Shown piece by piece: positions 37,962 through 62,607 of a stretch of DNA of 64,000 nt. The stretch spans positions 125,702 to 189,701 of the forward strand of contig JAPLLX010000006.1 in the NCBI GenBank assembly GCA_026387335.1, given 5' to 3'. A program made the position numbers and the translations under genes. How positions within the stretch are numbered: the first letter of the stretch is position 1; each line of letters opens with the position of its first letter. Origin of the DNA: Candidatus Omnitrophota bacterium. GTDB lineage: Bacteria > Omnitrophota > Gorgyraeia > Gygaellales > Profunditerraquicolaceae. The notes below the pieces were generated by a model. That model saw only the letters and a program-made list of their open reading frames with translations, was not told where the DNA came from and did not search any database.

Positions 37962-38873
37962 TTATAAAAACCAGGTTATCAAGGCACCTAAAAACATCCA
38001 GGTAGCAAAGGGAAGATTTTTTTTAACAATTCTATCCGCATGCAGGTCTACTATCCTTTGAAACAGCGGCGCCAAAAGTATGACTAACAAAGTTTTTCCC
38101 AATATGCTTTTTATATCCAGGACAAACCGCTCCCAGGGGTAATCCATCTTTAAAAAAACATAGCCCATTAAAATTAAAAGGGCTAAGGATATCATTTTGA
38201 TATTTTTGTTAAAAAATCTGGAAAGCGGCGTAAACACAAATAAAGAAATTACTATAAGAATATTCTGATCGCCTGGAATCCTGCTCCCAAACAGATTGTA
38301 TAGCGACACATTGATCACCTTAAACAACAAAAAAAAGAAAAAAAACCCCAACAGGATATCACCGGCTTTGACTATATTAAATTTTGCCAGCTTTCCCTTA
38401 ATGAACCCATAAATCTTATCTCCAGGCTTAGAAAAATTAAACGTATTAGCAAAATAAACCCCGGACTTCACAATCAAAAATATGGTAGGCGGTATAAAAA
38501 TAGCCGACAATAATAAAAAGGCGGCAAAATAATAATTAAAATATACTTTAGAATATTGTCCTATAGGGATAAGCGCAACATAACAAACAAACAACTTAGC
38601 ATCGCCGGCCCCCCACATTCTAAAATGCCATAATACGTAAGCAACCAAACCGCTGATGAGCAAGTTTATGCACCATTTATCAAAGTTCCAGGTTAAGCCA
38701 GGGTTGGTCAGAGAGGGCTTACAGAAAATCCAAATCAAGGCGTAAGCAAAAAAAGAATAAAGCAGGCCAAGGATGACCCATTTATTTTTAATCTTGCTTT
38801 CCTTTATATCTTCGTAACTGGTAATAAAACCGATAAGAAGAATTATGGGTAGGAAAATTACATTGCTTGCCAT
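37962..38873 (-). CDS. A24-family prepilin peptidase-like membrane protein (CpaA/TadV/FlaK-like) with a long C-terminal polytopic extension
   Basis: 303 aa polytopic membrane protein. First catalytic-Asp context (YEDIKESKIKNKWVI, compare D-x5-IPN) and second motif (WGAGDAKLF, compare GGGDVKLL) both match A24 aspartic peptidases. Confidence 0.6.
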   Translation of the reverse strand: MASNVIFLPIILLIGFITSYEDIKESKIKNKWVILGLLYSFFAYALIWIFCKPSLTNPGLTWNFDKWCINLLISGLVAYVLWHFRMWGAGDAKLFVCYVALIPIGQYSKVYFNYYFAAFLLLSAIFIPPTIFLIVKSGVYFANTFNFSKPGDKIYGFIKGKLAKFNIVKAGDILLGFFFFFLLFKVINVSLYNLFGSRIPGDQNILIVISLFVFTPLSRFFNKNIKMISLALLILMGYVFLKMDYPWERFVLDIKSILGKTLLVILLAPLFQRIVDLHADRIVKKNLPFATWMFLGALITWFL

Positions 38874-38876
38874 AGT

Positions 38877-39356
38877 TTAGACTCTAGAGGTACGCTTGCT
38901 TACTTCCGAAACCATTTTTTTAAATTCCGAGTAAGTACCGCCGGCTAATTTTAAGTATTTATAGTAATACATTACGTAGCTATAATTAAATAATATCCCC
39001 CGGCTTATCCTATATTCCCCGTTATGCCTTAAAACAAAGGCCAGATCCATCCAATTATCCAGGTTATCCGGATTAAGCGCAATCGCCTTTAAAAAATATT
39101 CCTTGGCCTTCTTGAAATCCTCACTAATATAATAAACATACCCGGCTAAAGCCAGGATGGTCTCATCCTCTTGCGCTTTTAACCAATCATTGATTTTTCC
39201 TTTTAATTGATTAAACTTCGAAGGGCAGGAATAATATAAAACTGCTAATTGAGGAAAGAGCGAGTCCTCCCTCTCGGCATAACCGGATACATTATTAGTT
39301 TTGCGGGGGAAAATCCGGAAGCCGCAGATAATGTCGAATTCTTCAGGAATAGTCAT
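38877..39356 (-). CDS. TPR-repeat protein
   Basis: 159 aa; KAKEYFLKAIALNPDNLDNWMDLAFVLRHNGEY is a typical TPR unit. Confidence 0.55.
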   Translation of the reverse strand: MTIPEEFDIICGFRIFPRKTNNVSGYAEREDSLFPQLAVLYYSCPSKFNQLKGKINDWLKAQEDETILALAGYVYYISEDFKKAKEYFLKAIALNPDNLDNWMDLAFVLRHNGEYRISRGILFNYSYVMYYYKYLKLAGGTYSEFKKMVSEVSKRTSRV

Positions 39357-40328
39357 TTAGTTAAATTGGATAATAAAAGGGGTTTCGGGAGCAAACTGCT
39401 TTTTTTGCCATTTGATTCTTTTTATCGCCCTGCCCCTTTTTAAGATTACCGTATCCTTACCTTCCAAAAATACACAATCGCCTCTTTTTAAATCAGCTTC
39501 ATAAAGGTTATTCTCCGGCATCTGCCCGATAAAATAAACATTTTTATAATATATCCTTTTATTTTTTATCTCACCCTCAAAAGCGTAAAATTTTCTCTCG
39601 TAAAAGACAAGCAGAGGCAATTTCAGATGCCTGTCAATATTCCTGACTAATTCCGGTTCCTCCTCATAAATAGCGCTCCTTATCTTCTTGGTCAAACTCA
39701 GGGTCTTGGCGCAATCATAAGAACAGGGCATATGATAAATATAAGAATACGTCACATCTTTAGTAAAAGGGTTGCACAGGAACGGATGCTTACCTTGAGG
39801 CGTATTTTTTAGTATCTCATAAAGGTGGCTGTACTTATTCCAGTTATTATATTTCCGAAAGAAAGCGACACAGCAGGCCGGATAGCCCAGGTCATGCCCG
39901 AATTTGAAAGCGTCTATCAACGGTTTATCGATAACCCTGTTTTTTATGATCAAAGGGTACCATCCGTTTCGAAGAGCCTTATCTAAGTTATTTTTTGTTT
40001 TAGCTACGAAGACATGGACAGCGCTATTGACCCGCGGCTGATTTAACGGCAAGCCAAAAGCGGTAGTGGTAGTTAAACGCTCCCTGCCCACAATACCCAT
40101 AGGTAGATCTGTTTTTTTGACTACATCAAAAATAGTATCTGGCTCAACAAAAAGCCCGTAGCTGGCACATATATTATTATACGCCTTAAGCCTGTTTACC
40201 GGTATCCAATCATCCATACAGGGCTTGATTCCCTTAATGGTAGCCATAATCATTACCAATTGGCCGCTATAGCCTTTTATCTCCACAAATTCCCTGCAGA
40301 ACTTTTTAGGCAAAAATGGCTCAAACAT
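39357..40328 (-). CDS. Hypothetical protein with conserved Cys/His motifs (GYPACC ... HMPCSYDC)
   Basis: 323 aa ORF tightly packed in the operon (0-nt gap to the TPR gene; 1-nt overlap with the upstream rSAM gene). No family recognised from sequence alone. Confidence 0.4.
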   Translation of the reverse strand: MFEPFLPKKFCREFVEIKGYSGQLVMIMATIKGIKPCMDDWIPVNRLKAYNNICASYGLFVEPDTIFDVVKKTDLPMGIVGRERLTTTTAFGLPLNQPRVNSAVHVFVAKTKNNLDKALRNGWYPLIIKNRVIDKPLIDAFKFGHDLGYPACCVAFFRKYNNWNKYSHLYEILKNTPQGKHPFLCNPFTKDVTYSYIYHMPCSYDCAKTLSLTKKIRSAIYEEEPELVRNIDRHLKLPLLVFYERKFYAFEGEIKNKRIYYKNVYFIGQMPENNLYEADLKRGDCVFLEGKDTVILKRGRAIKRIKWQKKQFAPETPFIIQFN

Positions 40329-41212
40329 TATTTAATAGGTTTAAATTCATTCCAACCAAAAATCTCCGGATATTCACGCCAAGGCCCCTCGCAACATTTA
40401 AAATACCTGCATTTCTTACAATTCGGTCCCTTAAGCTTCCCCTCTTCCTTGCGCCAACGGCTGAAATCCTCATTTATCTTTACATCAAAAACCTTGGTTT
40501 CCGGTATATGCTGCTCCGCTATACAATCCCGGTATTTGCCCAAAAGACAATAAGGTATCGCCTCTGTCCTGACGATCCTGCCTCTGGCGATCCCGATCTT
40601 TAAACCTTTTTTGACATAAGGCATGATCTCTTTTTTCCGGGGGACTATAAAACTAATATTCTTAAGGGCATTCCCTAAAATATGAGGATAAGCAAATTGA
40701 TACTGCGGTACGCCTAAATCGATCAGAAAATCAGCGATTTCGGGTAAGAAACGGTAGTTTTTCTGGTTAATGACCGTATTCGTGACCACCATCTTACCTA
40801 AGGATAAAATATTTTTAATACCCGCGCTACTCTGTTGGAAACTTCCTCTGGCGCCGGTAAGGTAATCATGTAACCTGGCATTATGTCCATGGATAGATAC
40901 GGCAAACATATCCGCCCCTGCCTTAATTATATCCCTACAAAAATCTTTATAAACAAACATCCGGCCATTAGTCTGAAGCTGCACCTTATACCCTAAACCC
41001 TTGGCAAAACTGACCAATCCTATGATATTAGGCCTTAAGGTAAGTTCACCGCCGGTAAATACCACCTCCCCAAAAGCTTTCCTGGACTTTTTTAAAATCT
41101 CCTTGATCTCTTGATCGCTCTTATCGGGGCAAAAATCCCTTTTATCGCCCTGTACGCAAAATTTACAGTGGTTATTGCATTTAAAACTAACCTTGATGTC
41201 AATACGATTCAT
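40328..41212 (-). CDS. Radical SAM protein with C-terminal Cys-rich (SPASM/twitch-like) region
   Basis: CNNHCKFC (CxxxCxxC) at residues 12-19; FTGGELTL glycine-rich motif; C-terminal CKKCRYFKCCEGPW. Confidence 0.85.
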   Translation of the reverse strand: MNRIDIKVSFKCNNHCKFCVQGDKRDFCPDKSDQEIKEILKKSRKAFGEVVFTGGELTLRPNIIGLVSFAKGLGYKVQLQTNGRMFVYKDFCRDIIKAGADMFAVSIHGHNARLHDYLTGARGSFQQSSAGIKNILSLGKMVVTNTVINQKNYRFLPEIADFLIDLGVPQYQFAYPHILGNALKNISFIVPRKKEIMPYVKKGLKIGIARGRIVRTEAIPYCLLGKYRDCIAEQHIPETKVFDVKINEDFSRWRKEEGKLKGPNCKKCRYFKCCEGPWREYPEIFGWNEFKPIK

Positions 41213-42135
41213 CTAAAATATACTCCTATTTCTTTATTTTCCAGCGTTAAATACGACACGCCGGCGGAGATACCCTCTATTATAGCACCGGTAGAAATTA
41301 ACCAGCTATTTAATCGCGCTGGGACAGGCTTCATAATAGGCTGTAACGATTTAAATGGGGTCGGCTTTTTAAGGCGGGCCCAAATTTTAACTGATTCAAT
41401 GCGGGACGTTTTATCTATGCGATAAAGAAAACCGATATGTCTTAAGGGAATCTTCCCTATGACAGCAAGATAATGCCCCAGATATATATCTTTGCTGTTT
41501 TGATATTTCCTGTACGCCCTTGGTATATCAGATAGATTAAACGCGGGACGTAAAATTGTATAAATTTTAAGCCGGCAACAACCATTATGTAAAAAATCAA
41601 TTCCTATCGCGTCAAACTGCGTATCTAAAAAATTGTTTTTTAATTTCAGCCAGCTTAAACCTAAAAGAGCGCAGAGCCTCTCCATTAAATAACCGCATTG
41701 AGCGTTATCGCTGATAACGCTAAGATATATTTTCATTACAGGCGGTTTGTTTTTTTTAAGCGTATACCCGAATTGAACAGGCCAGGAGGTATCATCCATA
41801 GAAGAAGTCAGGTCTTTTAGTATATTTAAATTAAACCTAAAACCTGATTCCTTATTCACGTAGCTGATTATACTGGCGATAGATTCAATCCTTTTCTTCC
41901 TTAAGACCCTGATTTTATTATAAGGAAGACCCGGCTTGTAAAAATTAAGGTGGAGTAATCGGATAGCTCTTTCAGAAGAAACAAGCGAAGACTCAAATGT
42001 ATTCAGGCCGCCGGAGGATCCGCCAAGACTACTGCTCCAGAGCATTTTTGTAATCTTATTCAGGTCTAATGACGAATAAATATCCCATTTTTTAGTTAAG
42101 GATAAGATTAAATTTTGTACCTGGGCGCCTTGCAT
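41209..42135 (-). CDS. Hypothetical protein
   Basis: 308 aa, with a repeated strand-like K(I/V)Y/W pattern (MKIYLSV, CRLKIYT, VKIWARL). No confident family assignment. Confidence 0.35.
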   Translation of the reverse strand: MQGAQVQNLILSLTKKWDIYSSLDLNKITKMLWSSSLGGSSGGLNTFESSLVSSERAIRLLHLNFYKPGLPYNKIRVLRKKRIESIASIISYVNKESGFRFNLNILKDLTSSMDDTSWPVQFGYTLKKNKPPVMKIYLSVISDNAQCGYLMERLCALLGLSWLKLKNNFLDTQFDAIGIDFLHNGCCRLKIYTILRPAFNLSDIPRAYRKYQNSKDIYLGHYLAVIGKIPLRHIGFLYRIDKTSRIESVKIWARLKKPTPFKSLQPIMKPVPARLNSWLISTGAIIEGISAGVSYLTLENKEIGVYFR

Positions 42136-42143
42136 ATTCTAAC

Positions 42144-43259
42144 CTACTCAAAAATACGTTTTTTTGCTTCTTGGACATATTCCTTAAAGATCGGATCACT
42201 TTTTGCTTTTTTCAATACTTCCCTGGCTAGATCAACGGAACAAGAATCGCGTATTTGTAAAACCTTATTGAAATTTACACCTTTAGTGGCCTCTGTTTGG
42301 ACTTCATTACTGCTGTAATTTCTCCAACATTGCCTGCATTGAGCACAGCCCGGATCATGCTTACAAAATCGGTATTTATTTTTTAGTCCTTCCTGGATGT
42401 CTCCTATTATATATTTTTCTTTATCTTTGGAATTGATCAAAAAGGGAGAAAAGGCCAGCGTGCCATCCGGATGGACCTCCAGACTCCCAAAAAATGGACA
42501 CTCTTTATCCCGGCTACTTATTCTTTTATCTTTTAGTTCGCGGTTGACCGTATTGAGAAAGATAAAATTCCCTCTCTTAATATTAGCATATATATATTGC
42601 CTTAATTTAACCATTCCTTTTTGGAAACACTCTTTTTGCTTTATACTCCAGCTAAATCGCCGGCTACAGATAGGCTCGATATTAATACTGCTAAACCCTA
42701 AATCCGTTAAATAGAGCAAATTATTGTATATTTTATCCGCTAAAGCGGGCAATACCCCGAATAAGGCACAAAGTTTTTCTTGTTTTATATTCTTTAAAGC
42801 CAGGGGGAGCTTGTTCAATACAGCGTCAAACGAACCCTTTTGATTGCCAAAAACCCTATTTTTATCGTGATAGTCTTTACGGCCATCCAAACTAATGGCT
42901 AATCCTATTTTGGCCTTTTTGAAAAAGCTTAATTGTCGCTGATTCAATAAAATTCCATTTGTGCCCAAAGAGATGCTTAAAGACTTCTTAACCGATCTTG
43001 CTCTTTTTTGGGCAAAGTTTATTATTCTTTTAACGAGCTTGAATTTTAAAAGAGGTTCGCCTCCGTAGAGCATAAGTAGTTTTTGATTACCCGGTGAATT
43101 TAAAAACAGGGTTATTGCTTTAATGGCGACCGGATAGGTTATTGTTTGGTTGTTTTTATACACAAAACAATAGCGGCAATCTAAAATACACTCAGTGGTG
43201 ACGGTTAACCTCAGAAGATAGATCTCTTTGTTAAATTGGACGGGTAAATTAGTCAACAT
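42144..43259 (-). CDS. Radical SAM/SPASM-domain peptide-modifying-type enzyme (anSME/PqqE-like architecture)
   Basis: CILDCRYC motif, LYGGEPLL, and a C-terminal auxiliary-cluster region CPFFGS...CKHDPGCAQCRQC. Confidence 0.85.
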   Translation of the reverse strand: MLTNLPVQFNKEIYLLRLTVTTECILDCRYCFVYKNNQTITYPVAIKAITLFLNSPGNQKLLMLYGGEPLLKFKLVKRIINFAQKRARSVKKSLSISLGTNGILLNQRQLSFFKKAKIGLAISLDGRKDYHDKNRVFGNQKGSFDAVLNKLPLALKNIKQEKLCALFGVLPALADKIYNNLLYLTDLGFSSINIEPICSRRFSWSIKQKECFQKGMVKLRQYIYANIKRGNFIFLNTVNRELKDKRISSRDKECPFFGSLEVHPDGTLAFSPFLINSKDKEKYIIGDIQEGLKNKYRFCKHDPGCAQCRQCWRNYSSNEVQTEATKGVNFNKVLQIRDSCSVDLAREVLKKAKSDPIFKEYVQEAKKRIFE

Positions 43260-43268
43260 ATTGTTTTG

Positions 43269-44120: not shown

Positions 44121-44133
44121 AGATCCAACAGGG

Positions 44134-45687: not shown

Positions 45688-45704
45688 ATTATCATTCCTT
45701 AGGA

Positions 45705-49549: not shown

Positions 49550-49704
49550 TATTTCCCCGGAATTAGCTTCTTTTTGGTATTATATTCTGTCTTCCGGCAA
49601 TCCGCAAGCACTTTCAATCCAGCAAAATAAATTGAAATCGGAAAGTTAATATGGTTTAATAAGCAAGAGAGTTCGATACACTCTTCTAAAAACCTTACCT
49701 AAAT

Positions 49705-52443: not shown

Positions 52444-52445
52444 CT

Positions 52446-53828: not shown

Positions 53829-53833
53829 AACAT

Positions 53834-54978: not shown

Positions 54979-55307
54979 CCCCCTCCTCGCCCATGGTTAC
55001 CGTGGTTAGAGTGGTTAGAGTGGTTAGAGTGGTTACTATGGTTGGTGTGCGAACTGGAATGTGGCGTAGAGGAAGTATGGCCGCCTCCCCCCCCAGAGAC
55101 GAGCGAGTTACTATGGCTGGAATGACTGGCATGCTGGGCCTGAGCGCCTTTAGGTTCTAGCATCATTCCCAATACGGCTAAAGATATGCCTAATTTAGCA
55201 ATATTCTTCTTAGAGGCGTTCCCTTCTTCATTAAAAAGAAAGTCTTTAATATTTCTTTTAGTAACGGGCAATTTTTTATTCACCTTCTTATGGAGCTTTT
55301 TTTTCAT
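54969..55307 (-). CDS. His/Ser-rich triplet-repeat secreted peptide (His-Xaa-Ser-repeat precursor-like)
   Basis: Likely start is MKKKLHKK (ATG 55305-55307), 6 nt after AAGGAGG; the ORF-track GTG start at 55376 overlaps the upstream gene. Hydrophobic segment IAKLGISLAVLGMMLEPKGAQA, then HASHSSHSNS...GGGGG...HSSSHTNHSNHSNHSNHSNHGNHGRGGGWC. Its stop overlaps the start of the downstream rSAM gene. Confidence 0.55.
   Translation of the reverse strand: MKKKLHKKVNKKLPVTKRNIKDFLFNEEGNASKKNIAKLGISLAVLGMMLEPKGAQAQHASHSSHSNSLVSGGGGGHTSSTPHSSSHTNHSNHSNHSNHSNHGNHGRGGGWC
54993..55047 (-). repeat. Tandem 9-bp coding repeats (GTGGTTAGA x3 perfect, plus degenerate flanking units) encoding the HSN triplet repeat
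   Basis: gtggttaga gtggttaga gtggttaga gtggttact atggttggt. Confidence 0.85.
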
Positions 55308-56073
55308 TACGCGCCTCCTTATTAAGGGTAGCACAATATTTCTGGATAAATTCTTCAAATCCCTCATACTTTTCACAAGTAGTTTCGTCCCCGCTGATAT
55401 AACCCTGGCACATTAATCTTATATTAGGATCTTTTATTCCGTTGCATTTAGCAAGATTCTTTTCCTTAATCGCTTTTATATAAATGACTTTATCTACACA
55501 AAAATCATTCTTGCACAGTTTAACGTTTCCGGTGGTAAAAGCCCTGCATTCATTGCGTTCTGCTTCATTTTGCGCCTTTTCACAGACAGAACTATCATTG
55601 TTCAGCACTCCTTGCATAAATAGTTTAAACCCTTCACTATTCCGGTCCTTCCAGGAATTCATCAATTGCAGGCTGTTAAAGCCGGACTTAAAAAATCTGC
55701 CGTATATACCCTGATACTCGGTAAAATTAACCCGGCAGTCTTCCAGAAGAGAAGGTTGTAAACTAAGTTTGCCGCATTCCTCTATATCATCCTTTACCAC
55801 TGAACGGCAGTAGATACAACCAGTTAGAAGCTCCACTATCGGGGCCACTCGGGGATCATTAAAGTCTACCTTGTTAATATAAAAATCCTTAGAGCAATCT
55901 GCTGGCTTTTTTTCTTGAGGATAAGTCTCCACTTCTTGGGGATAATCCTCGATTAACTCGGCTTCGCTAAAAAGGAAAGAAAAATGGCTACTCAACATAA
56001 GAGAAACCAGAGACAGGAAGATGACCTTTAGGGCTAGTTTAAATTTGTCCATTATCAGCTCCTCATCACCCAT
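55288..56073 (-). CDS. Cys-rich secreted/membrane-anchored protein (16 Cys in the mature part)
   Basis: 261 aa; N-terminal hydrophobic helix LALKVIFLSLVSLMLSS; cysteines in spaced pairs (CIYC, CEKAQNEAERNEC, CKNDFC). Lies between the rSAM gene and the His/Ser peptide. Confidence 0.5.
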   Translation of the reverse strand: MGDEELIMDKFKLALKVIFLSLVSLMLSSHFSFLFSEAELIEDYPQEVETYPQEKKPADCSKDFYINKVDFNDPRVAPIVELLTGCIYCRSVVKDDIEECGKLSLQPSLLEDCRVNFTEYQGIYGRFFKSGFNSLQLMNSWKDRNSEGFKLFMQGVLNNDSSVCEKAQNEAERNECRAFTTGNVKLCKNDFCVDKVIYIKAIKEKNLAKCNGIKDPNIRLMCQGYISGDETTCEKYEGFEEFIQKYCATLNKEARNEKKAP

Positions 56074-57497
56074 TTATAAAATATATCCTTTATCTTCTCA
56101 TCTTTGAGCTTAATAAATAAATAATCCAAAATACCCTTATTGATCTGGCACCAAAATGCGGACTTATTAAAAATGTTCCCATTTATGGTATAATTCTGCA
56201 AAGGACATACCCCGCAATAGGGTTTATATACGCACTGGCTGCATTCGGGAAGATTATCCAGGCATGACGCTATGCACATCGTTTTTACCACGTTACTCTT
56301 AAAAAAATCCCTGTGCGAACCGGTCCTTACATTACCCAGCCTAAAAGATTCGTCTTTCTGCCGGCTCATCATCCTTCCTTCGTCACAGGCATAAACATCG
56401 CCATTAAAATTATAAGCCATTTGCCCTGTCCCTGCCCCGCAGGGAGAACGCAAATCAACATAACCCGGATCTTTATCCGTCAAAATTTTAGTTAAAAATA
56501 TCACGGCGAACCTTTCCCGAAAATCTTTGCCTTTCATATTCAAATCTATTATATGATCCAAAGCCTTTTTATAAAAAGTAAGGAAATCCTGCCCGGAGAA
56601 AGCTAACCTCTTCCATACCTTCTTATTAGTCCCAAACGGGCTTAGCGGCCTTAAATGCATCCCTTCCAGCCCTAATTTTACATATTCATTGACAATTTCT
56701 TTCGGAAAAGGAAGGGCCAGGCGGGTAATCGTAGCCAGAGCGAACGGCTTATGGCAGGAATTTGCTTTTTTATACTCCCTTATTAATCTTTTCAGCCATT
56801 TAACCGTATTTTTATGACTATTTTTATTCCCCAGAGTAACCCTGCATTTGTTATGCACCTTTTCGGGCCCATCCAATGAAGTGCATATATGGATATCGTT
56901 CTTTAAAAGGTACTTAACTATTTTCTCATTCATAAAGGTCAAATTGGATACAACGGTAAAACGCAAGTCCTTCTTGGCTTTTTTGTTCTTCTCTTGAGCA
57001 TACCGAACAATAAATTTTATAATTTCAAAATTGACTAAGGGTTCGCCTCCCTGAAATTCAATAGTAATTCCTTTATTGGCAGATTCAAAAATCCTATCGA
57101 CAACTTTTTCAGCCGTAGCTATATCCATATCTAATTCATTTTCCTTAAGATCCCGGGAACTTGCCTGACAATAAATACACTTATGGTCGCATCTTAAAGT
57201 AACTACCACAATATGTAAAGCGGTGCCTGCACTCCTTAAAAACATATTTTTTTGCACGTATCTTTGGGCCAGGTTATCAAAGTTTAACTGACCCCGGATA
57301 AAACCTTTATTCCGCAACTGGGAATACTCTTGGGGCGAAGCTTGTTCTATTTTACCGCTAAGGAAGGCGTTAAAACTTGGGGGCTGCAAAAAAATATAAT
57401 CCCCTATGACATTAGTCAGCAAATATTGCCCGTTTAACCGCTTAAATTGAAAGAAACCGACCTTCTGTCTATCTATCTTTTCAGACTCTAGCAACAT
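56055..57497 (-). CDS. Radical SAM/SPASM peptide-maturase-type enzyme with an about 100-aa N-terminal extension (HxsB-like position)
   Basis: LRCDHKCIYCQAS; FQGGEPL; C-terminal SPASM CGAG...YACDEG ... CSQCVYKPYCGVCP. Confidence 0.85.
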   Translation of the reverse strand: MLLESEKIDRQKVGFFQFKRLNGQYLLTNVIGDYIFLQPPSFNAFLSGKIEQASPQEYSQLRNKGFIRGQLNFDNLAQRYVQKNMFLRSAGTALHIVVVTLRCDHKCIYCQASSRDLKENELDMDIATAEKVVDRIFESANKGITIEFQGGEPLVNFEIIKFIVRYAQEKNKKAKKDLRFTVVSNLTFMNEKIVKYLLKNDIHICTSLDGPEKVHNKCRVTLGNKNSHKNTVKWLKRLIREYKKANSCHKPFALATITRLALPFPKEIVNEYVKLGLEGMHLRPLSPFGTNKKVWKRLAFSGQDFLTFYKKALDHIIDLNMKGKDFRERFAVIFLTKILTDKDPGYVDLRSPCGAGTGQMAYNFNGDVYACDEGRMMSRQKDESFRLGNVRTGSHRDFFKSNVVKTMCIASCLDNLPECSQCVYKPYCGVCPLQNYTINGNIFNKSAFWCQINKGILDYLFIKLKDEKIKDIFYKWVMRS

Positions 57498-57700
57498 TTC
57501 TTGGTCGCTCCTAAGACGTAATTGTTAAATTCATCTACAAATATATCCTTGACCTGCGTATCTATATTCTCTATTTTTACTTCTAGGTAATCTTTACAAT
57601 CCTTGACCCTGAATTTTGCCAGATGAGCATAAGCAAGGATCGCTTTCTGGATCGCCTTTTTTTTATAAAACCGAGTATTAAATCTTACGTTTTCTGGCAT
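57488..57700 (-). CDS. Small hypothetical protein (70 aa, ends ...KKCC)
   Basis: ORF overlapping both neighbours within the operon; no family recognised. Confidence 0.3.
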   Translation of the reverse strand: MPENVRFNTRFYKKKAIQKAILAYAHLAKFRVKDCKDYLEVKIENIDTQVKDIFVDEFNNYVLGATKKCC

Positions 57701-58082
57701 TTTTCTGTTTTCTATGTTTCTTTTTCCAAGGCAAAGCTATACCTAAAGGATCATCCTGATAATCCAGTTTTTCGGAAAGACTGACTACACCCGGACCCGG
57801 TAAAGTAGTATATAAAGCGCGGCCAACGATATATTCCCTGATCTTTTTGTTATTCTTACTTATCTCGTATCTTAAGGCGCAGCGCAATAGCTCATTCTTG
57901 AATTCACCTTTTAACGCTTCCAGTTTTTTACCCGCAACCTTGCCTTTACTTTTAAAAAAAACCTTAATCTGATTTCCCTTAAGATCGCTATCCAAAAAAA
58001 TGTAGACGCGGTCAATAAATAAATAACAAGCATTCAAAATAGCTTCTAAAGGATAGATTCTTGCGCTTAGCTTAATCTCCAC
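57678..58082 (-). CDS. Small hypothetical protein with basic C-terminal tail (possible HxsD-like accessory protein; unverified)
   Basis: 134 aa, GTG start; located between the secreted paralogs and the rSAM/SPASM gene. Confidence 0.35.
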   Translation of the reverse strand: MEIKLSARIYPLEAILNACYLFIDRVYIFLDSDLKGNQIKVFFKSKGKVAGKKLEALKGEFKNELLRCALRYEISKNNKKIREYIVGRALYTTLPGPGVVSLSEKLDYQDDPLGIALPWKKKHRKQKNARKRKI

Positions 58083-58115
58083 TAAACTCCGCTCCTTCCT
58101 AAACTTAAGATTCCC

Positions 58116-58457
58116 TTAAGGTGACACAAAATAATCTACCGTACTCACCCATTTACTTTTATTTTTAACCCATACGTCACTAGCCGCGATCTCACCGTTA
58201 ACATCCAGTTCCGTCTGAACGCCCCCGTAGCTAGCTGCGCTGGTCGCTCCAATATTCACCTGCCCCTGGACAATAAGGCCGTTACTGGGCAGAGTGGTTG
58301 CTCTATACCCGGAGCCGATGGACATCTGGTCCGAGCGCAATTCTATATAACTACCGTAGGGCGAGGGATAGTAGGTAGCGATGGGGATGTTTTCTCCGGC
58401 AAAAACAGTTATATATCCTAAAAAAGATACCGCGATAATTAATAATAACTTCTTCAT
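58116..58457 (-). CDS. Secreted Gly/Ser-rich protein, paralog 1 (113 aa)
   Basis: Signal peptide MKKLLLIIAVSFLGYITVFAG; mature part ENIPIATYYPSPYGSY...VNGEIAASDVWVKNKSKW shared with paralog 2. Confidence 0.6.
   Translation of the reverse strand: MKKLLLIIAVSFLGYITVFAGENIPIATYYPSPYGSYIELRSDQMSIGSGYRATTLPSNGLIVQGQVNIGATSAASYGGVQTELDVNGEIAASDVWVKNKSKWVSTVDYFVSP
58149..58337 (-). repeat. 189-bp near-identical direct repeat, copy A (copy B at 58633..58821; about 98% identity)
   Basis: Copy A (58149..58337) aligns with copy B (58633..58821) with only 3-4 mismatches, which indicates a recent tandem duplication or gene conversion between the paralogous genes. Confidence 0.8.
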
Positions 58458-58470
58458 TGGAGGCCTTTAA

Positions 58471-58950
58471 TTAACCGCAGCATAAAAAAGATCCGGACGT
58501 AGGTATATCATAAGTAGTGGGGCTAGTGCCATATATTGGCTGAAACCAACTATACGTAGTCCCTGAACCGCAGAGGGTATTTCCAGTATTAGGTCCATAT
58601 GTCTTCATTGTACACCAGCTCAGACTCCCCAGCCATTTACTTTTATTTTTAACCCATACGTCACTAGCCGCGATCTCACCGTTAACATCCAGTTCCGTCT
58701 GAACGCCCCCGTAGCTAGCTGCGCTGGTCGCTCCAATACTCACCTGCCCCTCGATAATAAGGCCGTTACTGGGCAGAGTGGTTGCTCTATACCCGGAGCC
58801 GATGGACATCTGGTCCGAGCGTAGATTCGCGTAAACTCCGTAAGGCGAAGGATAATAAGTGGTAATGGTCAGATCTTCTGAAAAAGCAAAAGGGAAGGAA
58901 ATTATAATTAAACCTATAGAAATTACTAACGTGGTAAAAAATTTATTCAT
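58471..58950 (-). CDS. Secreted Gly/Ser-rich protein, paralog 2, with Cys-containing C-terminal tail
   Basis: Likely start MNKFF (ATG 58948-58950) preceded by AAGAGGTG. Shares the core with paralog 1, plus the tail CTMKTYGPNTGNTLCGSGTTYSWFQPIYGTSPTTYDIPTSGSFLCCG. Confidence 0.6.
   Translation of the reverse strand: MNKFFTTLVISIGLIIISFPFAFSEDLTITTYYPSPYGVYANLRSDQMSIGSGYRATTLPSNGLIIEGQVSIGATSAASYGGVQTELDVNGEIAASDVWVKNKSKWLGSLSWCTMKTYGPNTGNTLCGSGTTYSWFQPIYGTSPTTYDIPTSGSFLCCG
58633..58821 (-). repeat. 189-bp direct repeat, copy B
   Basis: See copy A (58149..58337). Confidence 0.8.
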
Positions 58951-59028
58951 TGCACCTCTTAGCATAATTCCTACTTGACCCTGCCCGCTCTTAAGAATAA
59001 ATTATCATAACTCCTGCAATGAGTCAAG

Positions 59029-60597
59029 TTAAAACAGGTGCGCCTTGACCCTGGCAATATCTTCTCCCTGCTTAAGCTCATTTATGAAATTTTCCATATT
59101 CTTCTCCCAGGCCCTATCCGTAAAAAAATAACGCGCGAGGTACTTATTCATTCGCCGCGGATCTTTAAACTTCCTGTTCATTAAAAATACGAACTGGACA
59201 GGCCTGAAATAATCAATCTTATTGCGGTCCAGGCACTCTAAGAAACGGGAATACCGGTATTCCATCAATTTCCTAGCCATATCCCACTTCCAACCCCGGA
59301 ATTCATCATAGGCAAACTCAAAACCCGGATTTGATTGCTCCCTAACATTAATAATCCTGTATTTTGCGCAAGATCTAAACATCAGACTTTCCGGTTTAAG
59401 CACAAACCTGTTTAAATTAACTCCTTTAATATACGCATTATTATCTCTTATGAATTCCAGCGTGGAAATGATATCCTGGCTCGTCTCAAAAGGCAAACCG
59501 ATCAACAGGTCTATCTCTACCCAGATGCCCAGGTCATGGCATAGTTTTAAAATATGGGAAGCGTGTTTAAGGTCAATGACTTTACCTATGTATTTCTGCA
59601 GTTTAATACCGGCGGATTCCAATCCGATCACCAGCCTTACTGCCCCCGCTTCTTTTAAACGCAAAAGTATTTCTTTATCCAGGTTATTAAAGGTGGCGCA
59701 GTCGGTAAACTTTATCTTTAGGCGCTCTTTTGCTATCTTATCGGTAAGATCCCGGACAGTCTGCTTGGTTGGATTGATATTCGAATTCAGAAAAAAGAAG
59801 TCCTGCGTCTTATGTTCCCGTTTAAGAAATTTTAGTTCGCGGATTATCCTATCGTAATCCTTTATCTTAAATCCGGGTTTTCCGGATAATTCACAAAATA
59901 TACAGCTATTCTGGCAGCCTTCGATAAACGTATACGGGAGCAATAAAGGAAGTGATTTTGAAACGCCGGTATATCTGGATAAATTGCTTATCCGCCCTGA
60001 ATGCGGGAGAAACTCCGAGATTATAGTATTCCTGCTGTATTTATATAGGCTAAGCGGAAACCCCTTAAAATTCGGCTCTAAGAAAATCCGGGGAAGTTTC
60101 GGGTTAAGCTTGTTTTTGACGTTTAAAAAATCAATAAAGCTGTCTATACTGGAAGTCTGGTAATCTATAAGGCCTGCCTCTCGGTAAGCCGGCAGCTCGA
60201 AATTAGCGACGATTATCACGCCATAGCTATCTTTTATCTTCTTCATCAGGCAGGCGGCGATAGCCTGGCTGTTGATTCTATCCAACGACGGGTAATGCCC
60301 GGAAAAACAGACATAATCATACCCCGAAAAATCTGTTAAGGCCATTACTTTTGCGGTTTCCGCATCAATCTCAGCGCAAGCAGACCCGCGTAGGTAATCA
60401 TTGACTCTGGCTTGGTCCAGAAAAACATCCGTTTTTATGCTCCCCTTTACCAAAGACCTGTAAAGTTTGACATAAAGATCGTCGATATCATGCTCTATAT
60501 TATTCTGGCTTAAAGCCGAACTTACTAGCGCCAGGCCCAAAGGAGGCATGAAGGCATGATAGAAATAGTAAGGGGTAAGAACTAATTTCACTTTCAT
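59029..60597 (-). CDS. Cobalamin-binding-domain radical SAM protein (class B-type architecture)
   Basis: N-terminal B12-binding-like region (VLTPYY...PPLGLALVSSAL) and rSAM motif EGCQNSCIFCEL; 522 aa. Starts 21 nt downstream of etfA. Confidence 0.8.
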   Translation of the reverse strand: MKVKLVLTPYYFYHAFMPPLGLALVSSALSQNNIEHDIDDLYVKLYRSLVKGSIKTDVFLDQARVNDYLRGSACAEIDAETAKVMALTDFSGYDYVCFSGHYPSLDRINSQAIAACLMKKIKDSYGVIIVANFELPAYREAGLIDYQTSSIDSFIDFLNVKNKLNPKLPRIFLEPNFKGFPLSLYKYSRNTIISEFLPHSGRISNLSRYTGVSKSLPLLLPYTFIEGCQNSCIFCELSGKPGFKIKDYDRIIRELKFLKREHKTQDFFFLNSNINPTKQTVRDLTDKIAKERLKIKFTDCATFNNLDKEILLRLKEAGAVRLVIGLESAGIKLQKYIGKVIDLKHASHILKLCHDLGIWVEIDLLIGLPFETSQDIISTLEFIRDNNAYIKGVNLNRFVLKPESLMFRSCAKYRIINVREQSNPGFEFAYDEFRGWKWDMARKLMEYRYSRFLECLDRNKIDYFRPVQFVFLMNRKFKDPRRMNKYLARYFFTDRAWEKNMENFINELKQGEDIARVKAHLF

Positions 60598-62606: not shown

Positions 62607-62607
62607 T

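What the first reader, a model, noticed from the sequence alone, without database searches (positions are those of the whole stretch)
37962..60597. A 22.6-kb block with nine radical SAM enzymes, glycosyltransferases, methyltransferase, AsnB-like and U32-like proteins
Between smc and etfA lie 24 contiguous genes with intergenic gaps mostly of 0-20 nt or overlapping. Nine of them carry CxxxCxxC radical SAM motifs: 40328-41212, 42144-43259, 43269-44120, 45705-47684, 51307-52443, 52446-53828, 53834-54978, 56055-57497 and 59029-60597. They span at least four subclasses (SPASM/twitch, MTTase-like, HemN-like class C type, B12-binding class B type). Interleaved are two GT2 glycosyltransferases, a SAM methyltransferase fusion, an AsnB-like protein lacking the Cys nucleophile, a U32-like protein, an A24 peptidase, secreted Cys-rich and His-rich proteins, and several proteins with no recognisable family. 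This density and diversity of rSAM tailoring enzymes resembles heavily modified RiPP or glycoconjugate pathways, but no known cluster type fits the whole set. The segment 37.9-49.5 kb also looks clearly AT-richer than the flanking core genes, which suggests horizontal acquisition.
Basis: partly seen in the sequence, partly recalled or inferred. Interest (0 to 1): 0.85.

Follow-up and report, generated by a model that had tools for sequence, protein, structure and literature searches.

The report
Expanded His-Xaa-Ser peptide-maturation cluster with prenyltransferase
This block in an uncultured Omnitrophota genome is a conserved, much enlarged version of the His-Xaa-Ser (HXS) radical-SAM system, recently shown in E. 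coli to block phage DNA entry, and it appears to build a heavily modified, probably prenylated, histidine-rich envelope peptide.

Summary
Nine carry CxxxCxxC radical-SAM motifs, but one (53834-54978) is broken by a 1-nt frameshift in an A9 run. The "His-rich protein" (54969-55307) is an HxsA-type precursor. Gene 56055-57497 is HxsB (506 bits, cutoff 370). Genes 57678-58082 and 57488-57700 are HxsD and an HxsD-like protein. Gene 40328-41212 is the closest thing to HxsC.

The two halves of the block are adjacent in homologous clusters of six other diverged lineages, nearly all Omnitrophota. This is therefore one conserved system with a variable tailoring shell, not scattered housekeeping radical-SAM genes.

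The conserved "no family" protein 41209-42135 folds (pLDDT 90) as an ABBA prenyltransferase, closest to the RiPP enzymes PagF, PirF and LimF. One homologous cluster also carries a polyprenyl synthase. All six prenyltransferase-containing loci have a precursor ending in Trp-Cys.

The most conserved gene, a DUF483-like protein, has no structural relative.

The AT-richness is real but mild and lies mostly at codon position 1, so it is weak evidence for horizontal transfer.

Verdict: a new variant of a known kind. The biological role (phage defence or other) is unproven.

The parts
57678..58082 (-). HxsD (134 aa)
   Evidence: TIGR03976 scores 66.9 bits against a cutoff of 50. Orthologues lie in L002, L004, L006, L014 and L018.
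57488..57700 (-). HxsD-like small protein (70 aa)
   Evidence: NF038315 'HxsD-like protein' scores 69.3 bits against a cutoff of 41. It always sits between HxsD and HxsB in homologous loci.
56055..57497 (-). HxsB, radical SAM/SPASM maturase (480 aa)
   Evidence: TIGR03978 equivalog scores 505.9 bits against a cutoff of 370, full length 3-466/466. CxxxCxxC at residue 103. SPASM domain PF13186.
55288..56073 (-). Conserved Cys-rich protein with an N-terminal hydrophobic, signal-like segment (261 aa, 13 Cys); function unknown
   Evidence: No family hit. Orthologues at 29-39% identity occupy the same position in L002, L004, L014 and L017. The 215-aa Cys-rich protein of L018 gave no BLAST hit. The signal-like N-terminus is my reading of the sequence.
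54969..55307 (-). HxsA-type precursor (112 aa from the Met at 55307). It has a basic N-terminus, an IKDFLxxEEG leader motif, K-L-G, a hydrophobic segment, A-Q-A, a His/Ser/Asn/Gly-rich core (4 HxS + 7 HxN) and a C-terminal GGGWC.
   Evidence: HxsA3 scores 43.7 bits (cutoff 65) and HxsA4 30.2 bits. There are 214 representative relatives at E<=1e-3, and 131 of 150 carry the leader motif. Orthologues are read.
53834..54978 (-). Radical SAM/SPASM maturase of a conserved family, frameshifted here at an A9 run (54831-54839, plus strand)
   Evidence: The repaired 381-aa protein has CxxxCxxC at residue 18 and is 64%, 51%, 50%, 36% and 35% identical to intact orthologues in L002, L004, L017, L006 and L018. 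The best NCBIfam hits, PapB and CcpM, fall below their cutoffs.
52446..53828 (-). HemN-like (class C type) radical SAM protein (460 aa); shell gene
   Evidence: Best hits are STM4012 197 bits (cutoff 380), HemW 161 (205) and HemN 164 (325). Orthologues are 50% identical in L004 and 47% in L018.
51307..52443 (-). MiaB/RimO-like methylthiotransferase-type radical SAM protein (378 aa); shell gene
   Evidence: TIGR00089 scores 171 bits (cutoff 251). PF04055 plus a weak UPF0004 hit. Orthologues are 42% identical in L004 and 37% in L018.
49705..51306 (+). AsnB-like ATP-dependent amidotransferase homologue without the Cys nucleophile (533 aa); lineage-specific
   Evidence: PF00733 80.5 bits, with GATase_7 covering only residues 79-144. 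The N-terminus is MAIFG and SGGVDS is present. No orthologue in other lineages.
48452..49549 (-). Peptidase-U32-family-like protein (365 aa); shell gene
   Evidence: PF01136 scores 32.3 bits over a partial stretch, residues 96-158. It is 33% identical to the L002 orthologue. A U32 gene is also present in L017.
47659..48486 (-). GT2 glycosyltransferase (275 aa); shell gene
   Evidence: PF00535 55 bits. It is 33% identical to the L002 orthologue.
45705..47684 (-). RimO/MiaB-like radical SAM protein with an unassigned 280-aa C-terminal extension (659 aa)
   Evidence: UPF0004 plus Radical_SAM domains. RimO 188 bits (cutoff 357) and TIGR00089 217.5 (251). The C-terminal 281 aa have no Pfam hit. It is 72% identical to the L002 orthologue.
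44134..45687 (-). GT2 glycosyltransferase fused to a class I SAM methyltransferase (517 aa); lineage-specific
   Evidence: PF00535 79.5 bits (residues 10-186) and Methyltransf_23/25/31 (residues 353-461). No orthologue in other lineages.
43269..44120 (-). Small radical SAM protein, MoaA/W-cofactor-maturase-like (283 aa); lineage-specific
   Evidence: PF04055 65.5 bits. TIGR04317 101.8 bits against a cutoff of 380. Only 23-29% matches in other loci.
42144..43259 (-). Second radical SAM/SPASM peptide-maturase-like protein (371 aa); conserved
   Evidence: PapB 146 bits (cutoff 340) and SCIFF 116. Orthologues are 35-44% identical in L002, L004, L017 and L018.
41209..42135 (-). ABBA-fold (PT-barrel) prenyltransferase of a new sequence family (308 aa); conserved
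   Evidence: No Pfam or NCBIfam hit and only 17 homologues. The AF2 model has pLDDT 89.8 and pTM 0.89 with five (alpha-alpha-beta-beta) units. Foldseek top hits are PagF 5tu6 (E 2.6e-8), PirF, LimF, PatF, KgpF, DciF and DMATS enzymes (TM up to 0.75). Invariant K/R/Y/E residues lie on strands. L017 co-clusters a polyprenyl synthase.
40328..41212 (-). HxsC-like radical SAM protein (294 aa); conserved
   Evidence: Best NCBIfam hits are HxsC4 152 bits (cutoff 500) and HxsC TIGR03977 91 bits (cutoff 268). Orthologues are 45-76% identical in L002, L004, L006, L011, L014, L017 and L018. In L018 it abuts a second hxsD.
39357..40328 (-). DUF483-like protein (323 aa); among the most conserved genes of the cluster, function unknown
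38877..39356 (-). Small TPR protein (159 aa), always paired with the DUF483-like gene
   Evidence: TPR_2 33 bits. Orthologues follow DUF483 in L002, L004, L013, L014, L015 and L016.
37962..38873 (-). A24-family (GxGD aspartyl, prepilin-peptidase-like) polytopic membrane protein (303 aa); conserved
   Evidence: PF01478 scores 29.3 bits against a cutoff of 26.5. D22 and GAGD91AKLF are invariant in 5 orthologues. Orthologues lie in L002, L004, L014, L015 and L018.
58471..58965 (-). Protein with an N-terminal hydrophobic, signal-like segment, a TTYYPSPYG motif and a Cys-rich C-terminus (164 aa); conserved, function unknown
   Evidence: No family hit. Relatives with the same N-terminal motif and a C-terminal CC flank the cluster in L002, L004 and L014.
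58116..58457 (-). Truncated tandem paralogue of the previous gene (113 aa, no Cys)
   Evidence: Near-identical to the 164-aa protein over about 80 residues.
59029..60597 (-). B12-class-like radical SAM protein (522 aa); membership in the system uncertain
   Evidence: PF04055 63.5 bits. HpnJ 70 bits and ApyD 63, all far below their cutoffs. No orthologue in other loci, only 26% identity in L015. Its GC3 of 0.489 resembles the flanks.
37609..37788 (-). Small HTH_17 (excisionase/MerR-type) DNA-binding protein (59 aa) just past the 3' end of the block; link to the system unknown
   Evidence: PF12728 63.4 bits.

Best explanation
The block is one conserved biosynthetic system: an enlarged His-Xaa-Ser (HXS)-type radical-SAM maturation cluster of Omnitrophota.

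Shown:
- It encodes an HxsA-type precursor, HxsB, HxsD, a second HxsD-like protein and an HxsC-like radical-SAM enzyme.
- It also encodes conserved extras: two further SPASM maturases, an ABBA-fold prenyltransferase, a DUF483-like/TPR pair, a GxGD aspartyl membrane peptidase, a Cys-rich protein and a TTYYPSPYG protein, both with signal-like N-termini.
- A lineage-variable shell of tailoring enzymes surrounds these: two methylthiotransferase-like, one HemN-like, one MoaA-like and one B12-like radical-SAM protein, two GT2s, a methyltransferase, a U32-like protein and an AsnB-like protein.

Inferred mechanism:
1. In the cytoplasm the precursor's conserved leader (IKDFLxxEEG) docks on HxsB, on HxsC-like/HxsD complexes, or on both.
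2. These enzymes and the other SPASM enzymes install cross-links or related modifications in the His/Ser/Asn-rich core.
3. The shell enzymes add methylthio, methyl, glycosyl, hydroxyl or amide decorations that differ between lineages.
4. The prenyltransferase alkylates the invariant C-terminal Trp-Cys.
5. The hydrophobic segment takes the peptide to the membrane. There it is cut either before that segment, after the conserved K-L-G, by the dedicated A24-like peptidase (prepilin-style), or after A-Q-A by signal peptidase.
6. The result is a histidine-rich, lipid-tagged peptide in the cell envelope.

By analogy with E. coli HXS, its most likely role is an envelope-located defence or barrier effector. 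That role is the least certain step.
For: Hxs kernel:
- HxsB scores 505.9 bits (cutoff 370), HxsD 66.9 (50) and HxsD-like 69.3 (41).
- The precursor's best hits are HxsA3 and HxsA4.
- The 294-aa radical-SAM protein's best hits are HxsC4 and HxsC.

One unit, not a chance juxtaposition:
- In L002 (prenyltransferase 55% identical to the window's), the left and right halves of the window's block are contiguous within 16 kb.
- The same core recurs in L004, L006, L014, L017 and L018, with different tailoring genes in between (orthology).
- In L018 the HxsC-like gene abuts a second hxsD. This matches the HxsC-HxsD complex shown in E. coli (PMC13128918).

Precursor family:
- There are 214 representative relatives.
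- 131 of 150 carry the leader motif, followed by a conserved Gly, a hydrophobic segment and HxS repeats.

Prenylation:
- The structure model is high-confidence and has the ABBA fold. Its top PDB matches are RiPP prenyltransferases.
- The invariant E48, K135, Y137, K190, Y192, R239, K250, W252, R254, Y295, Y306 and R308 sit at alternating strand positions.
- The homologous cluster in L017 carries a polyprenyl synthase with both DDxxD motifs and a second prenyltransferase paralogue.
- All 6 prenyltransferase-containing loci have precursors ending in WC. The one locus without it ends GGPCGW. Only 19 of 105 short family representatives end in WC.

Peptidase:
- D22 and GxGD91 are invariant.

Function precedent:
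- E. coli HxsBCD mature and N-terminally process HxsA, which acts in the periplasm against phage DNA entry (PMC13128918).
Against: - HxsC and HxsA membership fail the curated cutoffs: 91 vs 268 and 44 vs 65.
- The precursor lacks the peptidoglycan-binding domain that E. coli HxsA needs (PMC13128918).
- Gene order differs from the canonical D-B-C-A, and PADLOC gives only generic viperin-type radical-SAM hits.
- No chemistry has been observed. The prenyl acceptor, the donor length and every radical-SAM reaction are inferred.
- One core SPASM gene is frameshifted in this genome, so the system may be impaired here, or the base call may be wrong.
- The DUF483/TPR pair also occurs without any radical-SAM or Hxs genes within 10 kb in Vulcanimicrobiota-type contigs. 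Its tie to the pathway is therefore not obligatory.
- The six prenyltransferase-containing loci are phylogenetically related, so the WC association overstates independence.
- In L004 the A24-like gene is followed by type IV pilus genes, so a pilus-related role for it cannot be excluded.
Confidence: 0.62

Rival explanations
1. The same cluster makes a diffusible, secreted RiPP natural product, such as an antimicrobial or signalling peptide, rather than an envelope-resident defence effector. The hydrophobic segment plus A-Q-A acts as a Sec signal with a long n-region, and the modified 55-residue core is released.
For: - The enzyme set is typical of RiPP biosynthetic clusters: several SPASM maturases, a prenyltransferase and GT2s.
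- An AxA-type site follows the hydrophobic segment in the window, L002, L004 and L014 precursors.
- The tailoring shell varies between lineages, as in diversifying natural-product families.
Against: - No transporter, immunity gene or C39-type export protease lies in any of the loci.
- The only characterised relative, E. coli HXS, is a cell-bound periplasmic effector (PMC13128918).
- A C-terminal prenyl group would favour membrane retention (inference).
- Conserved proteins with signal-like N-termini, the Cys-rich protein and the TTYYPSPYG protein, suggest an envelope assembly.
Confidence: 0.2
2. The product is a metal-handling peptide. The His/Ser/Asn-rich core (12 His in 55 residues) would bind Ni, Zn, Cu or Fe in the envelope as a metallochaperone or metallophore, and the modifications would tune metal affinity.
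For: - Core composition is S15, H12, G10, N7.
- His-rich repeats are conserved across the 214-member precursor family.
Against: - No metal transporter, TonB-dependent receptor or metal-responsive regulator lies in any locus examined.
- In E. coli the HxS repeats are needed for DNA binding and defence (PMC13128918).
- The evidence is purely compositional.
Confidence: 0.1
3. The block is a juxtaposition of unrelated units. These would be a small Hxs operon, housekeeping radical-SAM enzymes for tRNA, ribosome or heme modification, and a polysaccharide gene set, clustering only in this genome.
For: - Four genes are unique to this lineage: the GT2-methyltransferase fusion, AsnB-like, rSAM283 and the B12-like radical-SAM gene.
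- AsnB is on the opposite strand and splits the block into at least three transcription units.
- The B12-like radical-SAM gene has flank-like GC3.
Against: - The two ends of the block (the Hxs genes, and the prenyltransferase, HxsC-like, DUF483, TPR and A24 genes) are adjacent in L002, L004 and L014. They partly recur in L006, L017 and L018, whose prenyltransferases are 32-55% identical to the window's.
- The MTTase-like and HemN-like proteins miss every housekeeping equivalog cutoff.
- They have orthologues inside the homologous clusters.
Confidence: 0.05

Closest known systems
HXS / His-Xaa-Ser system (HxsA, HxsB, HxsC, HxsD; TIGR03976-TIGR03979). Predicted by Haft and Basu 2011 (from my own knowledge; cited as ref. 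10 in PMC9062424). Shown to be an antiphage system that blocks phage DNA entry in E. coli (PMC13128918).
   Same: - HxsB and HxsD pass the curated equivalog cutoffs.
- The precursor has His-x-Ser/Asn repeats behind an N-terminal export-type segment.
- A second, smaller radical-SAM enzyme is closest to HxsC, and in L018 it is paired with an HxsD.
   Different: - This cluster has 23 genes rather than 4. The order is D-D'-B-X-A-SPASM...C-like, not D-B-C-A.
- The precursor is 112 aa with no peptidoglycan-binding domain and ends in GGWC.
- The HxsC-like and HxsA-like proteins fall below the family cutoffs.
- There are conserved extra genes: prenyltransferase, two SPASM enzymes, DUF483-like/TPR, A24-like peptidase and two proteins with signal-like N-termini.
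- The phylum is Omnitrophota, whereas 99.7% of canonical systems are in Pseudomonadota (PMC13128918).
NCBIfam variant Hxs families: HxsA3 (NF038309), HxsA4 (NF038313), HxsC4 (NF038332) and HxsD-like (NF038315)
   Same: - The HxsD-like model is met at 69.3 bits against a cutoff of 41.
- The short precursor and the HxsC-like enzyme have these models as their best hits.
   Different: - The scores for HxsA3 (43.7 vs 65), HxsA4 (30.2 vs 55) and HxsC4 (152 vs 500) are below the cutoffs.
- The library rows returned here give only model names and cutoffs, with no system composition. None of the papers I searched describes a 20-plus-gene context or a prenyltransferase for these variants.
Cyanobactin-type RiPP ABBA prenyltransferases (PagF, PirF, LimF, PatF, KgpF, DciF) and bacterial DMATS-type Trp prenyltransferases (CymD, IptA, PriB)
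   Same: - The same ten-stranded PT-barrel fold, with Foldseek E down to 2.6e-8 and TM up to 0.75.
- A similar size of about 300 aa.
- The gene sits in a peptide-modification cluster.
- Conserved basic and Tyr residues lie on the strands.
   Different: - Sequence identity is 10-15%. There is no Pfam or NCBIfam hit, and the profile search of PDB sequences gives only E 0.24 to a LynF/TruF/PatF member.
- The partner enzymes are radical-SAM enzymes, not cyanobactin proteases or heterocyclases.
- The putative acceptor is a C-terminal Trp-Cys.
Radical SAM/SPASM RiPP maturases (ranthipeptide PapB, SCIFF, CcpM) and MiaB/RimO methylthiotransferases
   Same: - Domain architectures and the CxxxCxxC motif match.
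- The UPF0004 N-domain with its three Cys is present in both MTTase-like proteins.
   Different: - All scores are below the equivalog and subfamily cutoffs.
- No TRAM domain is detected.
- The 659-aa protein carries an unassigned 280-aa C-terminal extension.

Membership tests
HXS / His-Xaa-Ser system | HxsB radical SAM/SPASM maturase (TIGR03978) | tested here: met
   505.9 bits against a cutoff of 370, aligned 3-466 of 466.
HXS / His-Xaa-Ser system | HxsD small protein (TIGR03976) | tested here: met
   66.9 bits against a cutoff of 50. A second, HxsD-like protein scores 69.3 against 41.
HXS / His-Xaa-Ser system | HxsC radical SAM maturase (TIGR03977) | tested here: not met
   The best candidate, 40328-41212, scores 91 bits against a cutoff of 267.9, and HxsC4 scores 152 against 500. 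It is a homologue but not a member by the curated threshold. An orthologue abuts hxsD in L018.
HXS / His-Xaa-Ser system | HxsA effector or precursor with tandem His-Xaa-Ser repeats | tested here: inconclusive
   4 HxS plus 7 HxN triplets. HxsA3 scores 43.7 against 65 and HxsA4 30.2 against 55. The leader motif is shared with 131 of 150 family representatives.
HXS / His-Xaa-Ser system | Peptidoglycan-binding domain in HxsA, required in E. coli (PMC13128918) | tested here: not met
   The protein is 112 aa with no Pfam domain. Nothing follows the repeats except GGGWC.
HXS / His-Xaa-Ser system | Four-gene operon in the order D-B-C-A (99.6% of systems; PMC13128918) | tested here: not met
   The order here is D, D-like, B, Cys-rich, A, SPASM and so on, with the HxsC-like gene about 13 kb downstream. 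There are 23 genes.
HXS / His-Xaa-Ser system | Antiphage activity through block of DNA entry | not testable with these tools
   The organism is uncultured, and PADLOC 2023 returned no Hxs-family match.
ABBA (PT-barrel) prenyltransferases | Five alpha-alpha-beta-beta units forming a 10-stranded barrel | tested here: met
   The AF2 model has pLDDT 89.8 with the secondary-structure order H-H-E-E repeated five times. There are 90 PDB matches at E<=1e-3, and all 50 top listed matches are ABBA prenyltransferases.
ABBA (PT-barrel) prenyltransferases | Sequence membership in a described prenyltransferase family (LynF/TruF/PatF, DMATS, CloQ/NphB) | tested here: not met
   No Pfam or NCBIfam hit. The profile search against PDB sequences gives only E 0.24 to a LynF/TruF/PatF protein.
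ABBA (PT-barrel) prenyltransferases | Barrel lined by Lys/Arg (diphosphate binding), Tyr, and a catalytic Glu | tested here: inconclusive
   The invariant E48, K135, Y137, K190, Y192, R239, K250, R254, Y295, Y306 and R308 fall on strands at i, i+2 spacing. I made no residue-by-residue superposition on PagF.
ABBA (PT-barrel) prenyltransferases | Prenyl transfer from an isoprenyl diphosphate | not testable with these tools
   There is only contextual support. A polyprenyl synthase (PF00348, with DDIYD and DDLLD motifs) lies inside the homologous cluster in L017.
Peptidase A24 (prepilin/preflagellin GxGD aspartyl peptidases) | Pfam PF01478 match plus two catalytic Asp, the second in GxGD | tested here: met
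   29.3 bits against a cutoff of 26.5. D22 and GAGD91 are invariant in 5 orthologues. The substrate was not tested.
MiaB/RimO methylthiotransferases | TIGR00089 subfamily score, UPF0004 + radical SAM + TRAM architecture | tested here: not met
   217.5 and 171 bits against a cutoff of 251. No RimO, MiaB or MtaB equivalog cutoff is reached and no TRAM domain is found.
Ranthipeptide/SCIFF-type SPASM maturases | Equivalog score for PapB (NF047865) or SCIFF maturase (TIGR03974) | tested here: not met
   42144-43259 scores 146 against 340 (PapB) and 116 against 425 (SCIFF). The C-terminal part of 53834-54850 scores 99 against 340.

The most novel reading that the evidence does not exclude
The Omnitrophota cluster defines a new RiPP or protein-maturation class. 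In it, an HxsB/HxsC-type radical-SAM-modified histidine-rich peptide is lipidated at a C-terminal Trp-Cys by a previously unrecognised family of ABBA prenyltransferases. The peptide is released from its leader by a dedicated prepilin-peptidase-like enzyme. The resulting prenyl-anchored periplasmic effector would replace the peptidoglycan-binding anchor of E. coli HxsA. The DUF483-like protein, among the most conserved genes and without a known fold relative, would be a new peptide-modifying enzyme.
Probability: 0.3. Interest if true: 0.8.

Novelty: new variant of a known kind. Interest (0 to 1): 0.66.

Why it matters
The chemistry of the HXS system is unresolved. Only a +8 Da change on one motif has been seen in E. 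coli (PMC13128918), and the system was reported as almost exclusive to Pseudomonadota.

This locus shows that the same HxsB/HxsD kernel is embedded, in an uncultured phylum of very small bacteria, in a conserved machine of about 10 core genes with a changing set of tailoring enzymes. The precursor family has at least 214 diverged representatives.

It offers three concrete, testable leads:
1. A new sequence family of peptide prenyltransferases, with a predicted acceptor motif (C-terminal WC) and in one case its own polyprenyl synthase.
2. A candidate dedicated leader peptidase for Hxs-type precursors. In E. coli the protease responsible for cleavage is unknown.
3. A highly conserved protein of unknown fold.

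If the defence role carries over, it would also extend envelope-level phage exclusion to Omnitrophota.

Tried and rejected
- PADLOC scan of ten cluster proteins returned only generic viperin-type radical-SAM matches and no Hxs-family match.
- Rfam over 37-61 kb returned no family.
- The promoter and terminator scan gave counts close to the shuffled expectation, so it was not used.
- I tried to reach the frameshift site in the closely related genome (92-100% identical proteins over the shared stretch) through exact look-ups of the AsnB-like and HxsD-like proteins. Neither was on record.
  - Indirectly, the homologue search with the SPASM C-terminal part found no protein above 63% identity. The relative therefore has no called intact orthologue either.
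  - That is compatible with a shared real frameshift, but it is not proof.
  - The identical Logan contig is probably from the same sample and is not independent.
- The genome-collection scan with the prenyltransferase alignment found only one species representative, because the search pattern was narrow.
- The small-ORF search in the two real intergenic gaps found no further precursor. It found only an HTH_17 gene.
- I rejected horizontal acquisition as a strong claim.
- I rejected the housekeeping reading.
- Literature searches found no description of this cluster in Omnitrophota. The DUF483 search only matched longer DUF numbers.

Full report
**Observation**

The region 37962-60597 lies between smc (34358-37594) and an etfA/etfB/acyl-CoA dehydrogenase operon (60619-63759). 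It holds 23 genes. All are on the minus strand except the AsnB-like gene.

Junctions range from a 35-nt overlap to a 21-nt gap, with four exceptions:
- a 155-nt divergent gap at 49550-49704
- gaps of 63, 33 and 13 nt around the two small secreted-protein genes

The opposite orientation of the AsnB-like gene implies at least three transcription units: 60597/58965 to 51307, the AsnB-like gene, and 49549 to 37962.

Under an assumed 2% genomic frequency of radical-SAM genes, nine among 24 has a probability of about 5e-10.

One of the nine, 53834-54978, is not intact. Its cluster-binding N-terminus is in a different frame from the remaining 338 codons. The break is an A9 run at 54831-54839 (plus strand), and one extra base restores a 381-aa protein 64% identical to an intact orthologue.

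**What the genes are**

- 56055-57497 is HxsB (505.9 bits, cutoff 370, full length).
- 57678-58082 is HxsD (66.9 bits, cutoff 50).
- 57488-57700 is the "HxsD-like protein" NF038315 (69.3 bits, cutoff 41).
- The 294-aa radical-SAM protein at 40328-41212, about 13 kb away, has HxsC4 and HxsC as its best hits (152 and 91 bits, below cutoff).

The remaining radical-SAM proteins are:
- two further SPASM-type maturase-like proteins (42144-43259 and the frameshifted gene)
- two MiaB/RimO-like proteins with UPF0004 N-domains
- a HemN-like protein
- a MoaA/W-cofactor-maturase-like protein
- a B12-class-like protein

None of these reaches the curated score of any housekeeping equivalog.

The organism is a Candidatus Omnitrophica/Omnitrophota MAG (100% identical NCBI proteins NTW18_06145 and NTW18_06135). 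The left flank of the window is core genome: tuf, fusA, rpoC, rpoB, ksgA, secDF, trpE, alaS and recA.

**One system or several?**

I used the 308-aa protein without a family (41209-42135) and the DUF483-like protein (39357-40328) as probes. I then read the neighbourhoods of their homologues.

- **L002/L003** (Hainich groundwater Omnitrophota; prenyltransferase homologue 55% identical). The whole set is contiguous within 16 kb. The order is: TTYYPSPYG protein, HxsD, HxsD-like, HxsB, Cys-rich protein, HxsA-type precursor, SPASM, SPASM, rSAM, U32, GT2, methyltransferase, 307-aa protein, HxsC-like, DUF483-like, TPR, A24-like, long MTTase.
- **L004** (37% identical). The same flanks are present, with HemN-like, MTTase-like and other radical-SAM genes in between.
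- **L014**. The Hxs half and the DUF483/TPR pair are divergently arranged, with an A24-like gene and a TTYYPAPFG protein at the far end.
- **L006, L017 and L018**. These add three more diverged versions.

The orthology tables sort the genes into three groups:
- **Core:** HxsD, HxsD-like, HxsB, Cys-rich protein, precursor, the SPASM family of the frameshifted gene, SPASM371, the 308-aa protein, HxsC-like, DUF483-like, TPR and A24-like.
- **Shell**, shared with some lineages: HemN-like, MTTase378, MTTase659, U32 and GT2-275.
- **Seen only in this lineage:** the GT2-methyltransferase fusion, AsnB-like, rSAM283 and the B12-like radical-SAM gene.

It is therefore not what the data show.

**The precursor**

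Read from the Met at 55307, the precursor is 112 aa:

MKKKLHKKVNKKLPVTKRNIKDFLFNEEGNASKKNIAKLG-ISLAVLGMMLEPKGAQA-QHASHSSHSN...HSNHSNHSNHSNHGNHGRGGGWC

A full-library HMMER search found 214 representative relatives at E<=1e-3. Of the 150 I fetched, 131 share the leader motif (DF-L/I-x-x-E-E-G). This is followed by a nearly invariant Gly, a hydrophobic segment and His-x-Ser repeats. Many end in an aromatic residue.

The core has 12 His, 15 Ser, 10 Gly and 7 Asn in 55 residues, with 4 HxS and 7 HxN triplets. Unlike E. coli HxsA (PMC13128918), it has no peptidoglycan-binding domain.

**A new prenyltransferase family**

The 308-aa core protein has no Pfam, NCBIfam or PADLOC hit and only 17 homologues among 5.8 billion clusters.

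With that alignment, AlphaFold2 gives pLDDT 89.8 and pTM 0.89, with five alpha-alpha-beta-beta units. Foldseek against the PDB returns only ABBA prenyltransferases among its 50 top listed matches. The best are the RiPP enzymes PagF (E 2.6e-8), PirF, PatF, LimF, KgpF and DciF. The highest TM-scores (0.73-0.75) are to the Trp prenyltransferase CymD.

The invariant residues of the family are E48, K135, Y137, K190, Y192, R239, K250, W252, R254, Y295, Y306 and R308. They fall on the predicted strands at alternating positions. This is the pattern expected for a barrel lumen lined by diphosphate-binding Lys/Arg and carbocation-shielding Tyr. That expectation rests on my knowledge of PagF and DMATS structures. 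I did no superposition.

Two independent contextual results support prenylation:
- The homologous cluster in L017 contains a polyprenyl synthase (PF00348) with both DDxxD motifs, plus a second paralogue of the barrel protein.
- All six loci that carry the barrel protein have a precursor ending in Trp-Cys: GGGWC, GGWC, GGWC, GGWC, GSWC and GGWC. The one Hxs locus without it (L014) ends in GGPCGW. Only 19 of 105 short family representatives end in WC.

The six loci are related, so the naive probability (0.18^6, about 3e-5) overstates independence. The association is nevertheless a clear prediction: the enzyme acts on the C-terminal Trp or Cys.

**Other conserved parts**

- **A24-like membrane protein.** It passes the Pfam cutoff narrowly but keeps both catalytic aspartates (D22, GAGD91AKLF) in five orthologues. 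The precursor's conserved K-L/I-G directly before the hydrophobic stretch resembles a class III (prepilin-type) cleavage site. A-Q-A after the stretch resembles a signal-peptidase I site. Either could be used; this is inference. In E. coli, HxsA is N-terminally processed by an unidentified activity that depends on HxsB, HxsC and HxsD (PMC13128918). A dedicated peptidase here is therefore notable.
- **DUF483-like protein.**
  - It is among the most conserved genes of the cluster (74% identical in L002 and 62% in L004; at least 145 homologues at 45-79%).
  - Four Cys, a His and several Asp are invariant.
  - A confident model (pLDDT 91.8) has no meaningful structural relative.
  - It always travels with a small TPR protein.
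  - That pair also occurs without any Hxs or radical-SAM genes within 10 kb in Vulcanimicrobiota-type contigs.
- **HxsC-like assignment.** In L018 the HxsC-like gene abuts a second hxsD. This fits the HxsC-HxsD complex reported in E. coli and supports the assignment despite the sub-threshold score.

**Composition**

Block genes average GC 0.393 against 0.436 outside (p = 1.5e-5), and GC3 0.424 against 0.462 (p = 4e-4). The shift is largest at codon position 1. The outside set is dominated by highly expressed core genes.

A related genome (proteins 92-100% identical over the shared stretch) has the same gene order from the AsnB-like gene through smc, GGDEF and recA. The cluster family is largely confined to Omnitrophota.

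The AT-richness is therefore real, but it is weak evidence for recent horizontal acquisition.

**Most likely mechanism**

- **Shown:** gene identities, conserved synteny, precursor features and the prenyltransferase fold.
- **Inferred:**
  1. Recognition of the precursor's leader and radical-SAM modification of the His-rich core by HxsB, HxsC-like/HxsD and the SPASM enzymes.
  2. Lineage-specific decoration by the shell enzymes. Candidate reactions are methylthiolation, C-methylation, glycosylation by GT2 enzymes (glycocin S/O-glycosyltransferases such as SunS are also GT2, from my own knowledge), hydroxylation and amide formation.
  3. Prenylation of the C-terminal WC.
  4. Membrane insertion and leader removal.
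  5. The end product: a lipid-tagged, histidine-rich envelope peptide.

By analogy with E. coli HXS, the best guess for its role is an envelope barrier or defence effector, with a prenyl anchor standing in for the missing peptidoglycan-binding domain. A diffusible RiPP and a metal-binding peptide remain live alternatives.

**Novelty and verdict**

The kernel belongs to a known kind (HXS). The 10-plus-gene conserved architecture, the new prenyltransferase family with its predicted acceptor, the dedicated A24-like peptidase and the DUF483-like protein were not described in any paper I could find. I rate it a new variant of a known kind.

Its interpretation is partly supported: the block is a coherent RiPP-like cluster, but it has a recognisable known core and only weak evidence for horizontal transfer.

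Noticed in passing
window 54831-54839 (A9 on the plus strand, inside 53834-54978): A single-base frameshift in a homopolymer splits a core SPASM maturase gene. A Logan contig from SRR20698650 is 100% identical across it. No intact orthologue above 63% identity exists in the protein database, although a close relative of the genome (92-100% identical proteins over the shared stretch) is present there. It could be a sequencing error, a real pseudogene or a slippage-prone tract.
   Followed up: partly
window 37609-37788 (-): A 59-aa HTH_17 (excisionase/MerR-type) DNA-binding protein sits in the 367-nt gap between smc and the A24-like gene. No integrase or repeat was seen nearby.
   Followed up: partly
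L017 6920-8935: A homologous Omnitrophota cluster carries a polyprenyl synthase (with DDIYD and DDLLD motifs). Directly after it comes a second, divergent paralogue of the ABBA prenyltransferase (30% identity over 156 aa).
   Followed up: partly
L013 10001-11442 and L016 10001-11469: The DUF483-like/TPR gene pair also occurs in Vulcanimicrobiota-type contigs with no radical-SAM or Hxs gene within 10 kb. There it sits next to unknown proteins of 304 and 486-505 aa and an ankyrin-repeat protein, so the pair may be an independent module.
   Followed up: no
proteins P0270 and P0271 (relatives of the precursor): Some members of the HxsA-type precursor family carry, after the His-rich repeats, what looks by eye like a C-terminal Hint/intein-like domain (CFPAGT ... 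HN). This was not tested with a domain search. Others have long Pro/Thr/Ser-rich tails, and one (P0245) is 470 aa.
   Followed up: no
window 58116-58457 and 58471-58965 (-): These are tandem paralogues with signal-like N-termini, nearly identical over about 80 residues. The shorter copy lacks the Cys-rich C-terminal part. Both share an N-terminal TTYYPSPYG motif with proteins flanking the homologous clusters in L002, L004 and L014.
   Followed up: partly
L004 16133-20921: In one homologous locus the A24-like gene is followed directly by a type IV pilin, pilM, pilN, pilO and a secretin gene. This raises the possibility that the peptidase is shared with pilus biogenesis in that lineage.
   Followed up: no
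window 17875-19782 (-): The Mfd-like ORF is only 635 aa and matches positions 300-822 of the 907-position TIGR00580 model. It may be truncated or split relative to typical transcription-repair coupling factors.
   Followed up: no
L018 3917-5276 (-): An HxsC-like radical-SAM gene overlaps a second hxsD copy on the strand opposite to the main hxsD-hxsB operon. This is a compact HxsC/HxsD pair inside the expanded cluster.
   Followed up: partly
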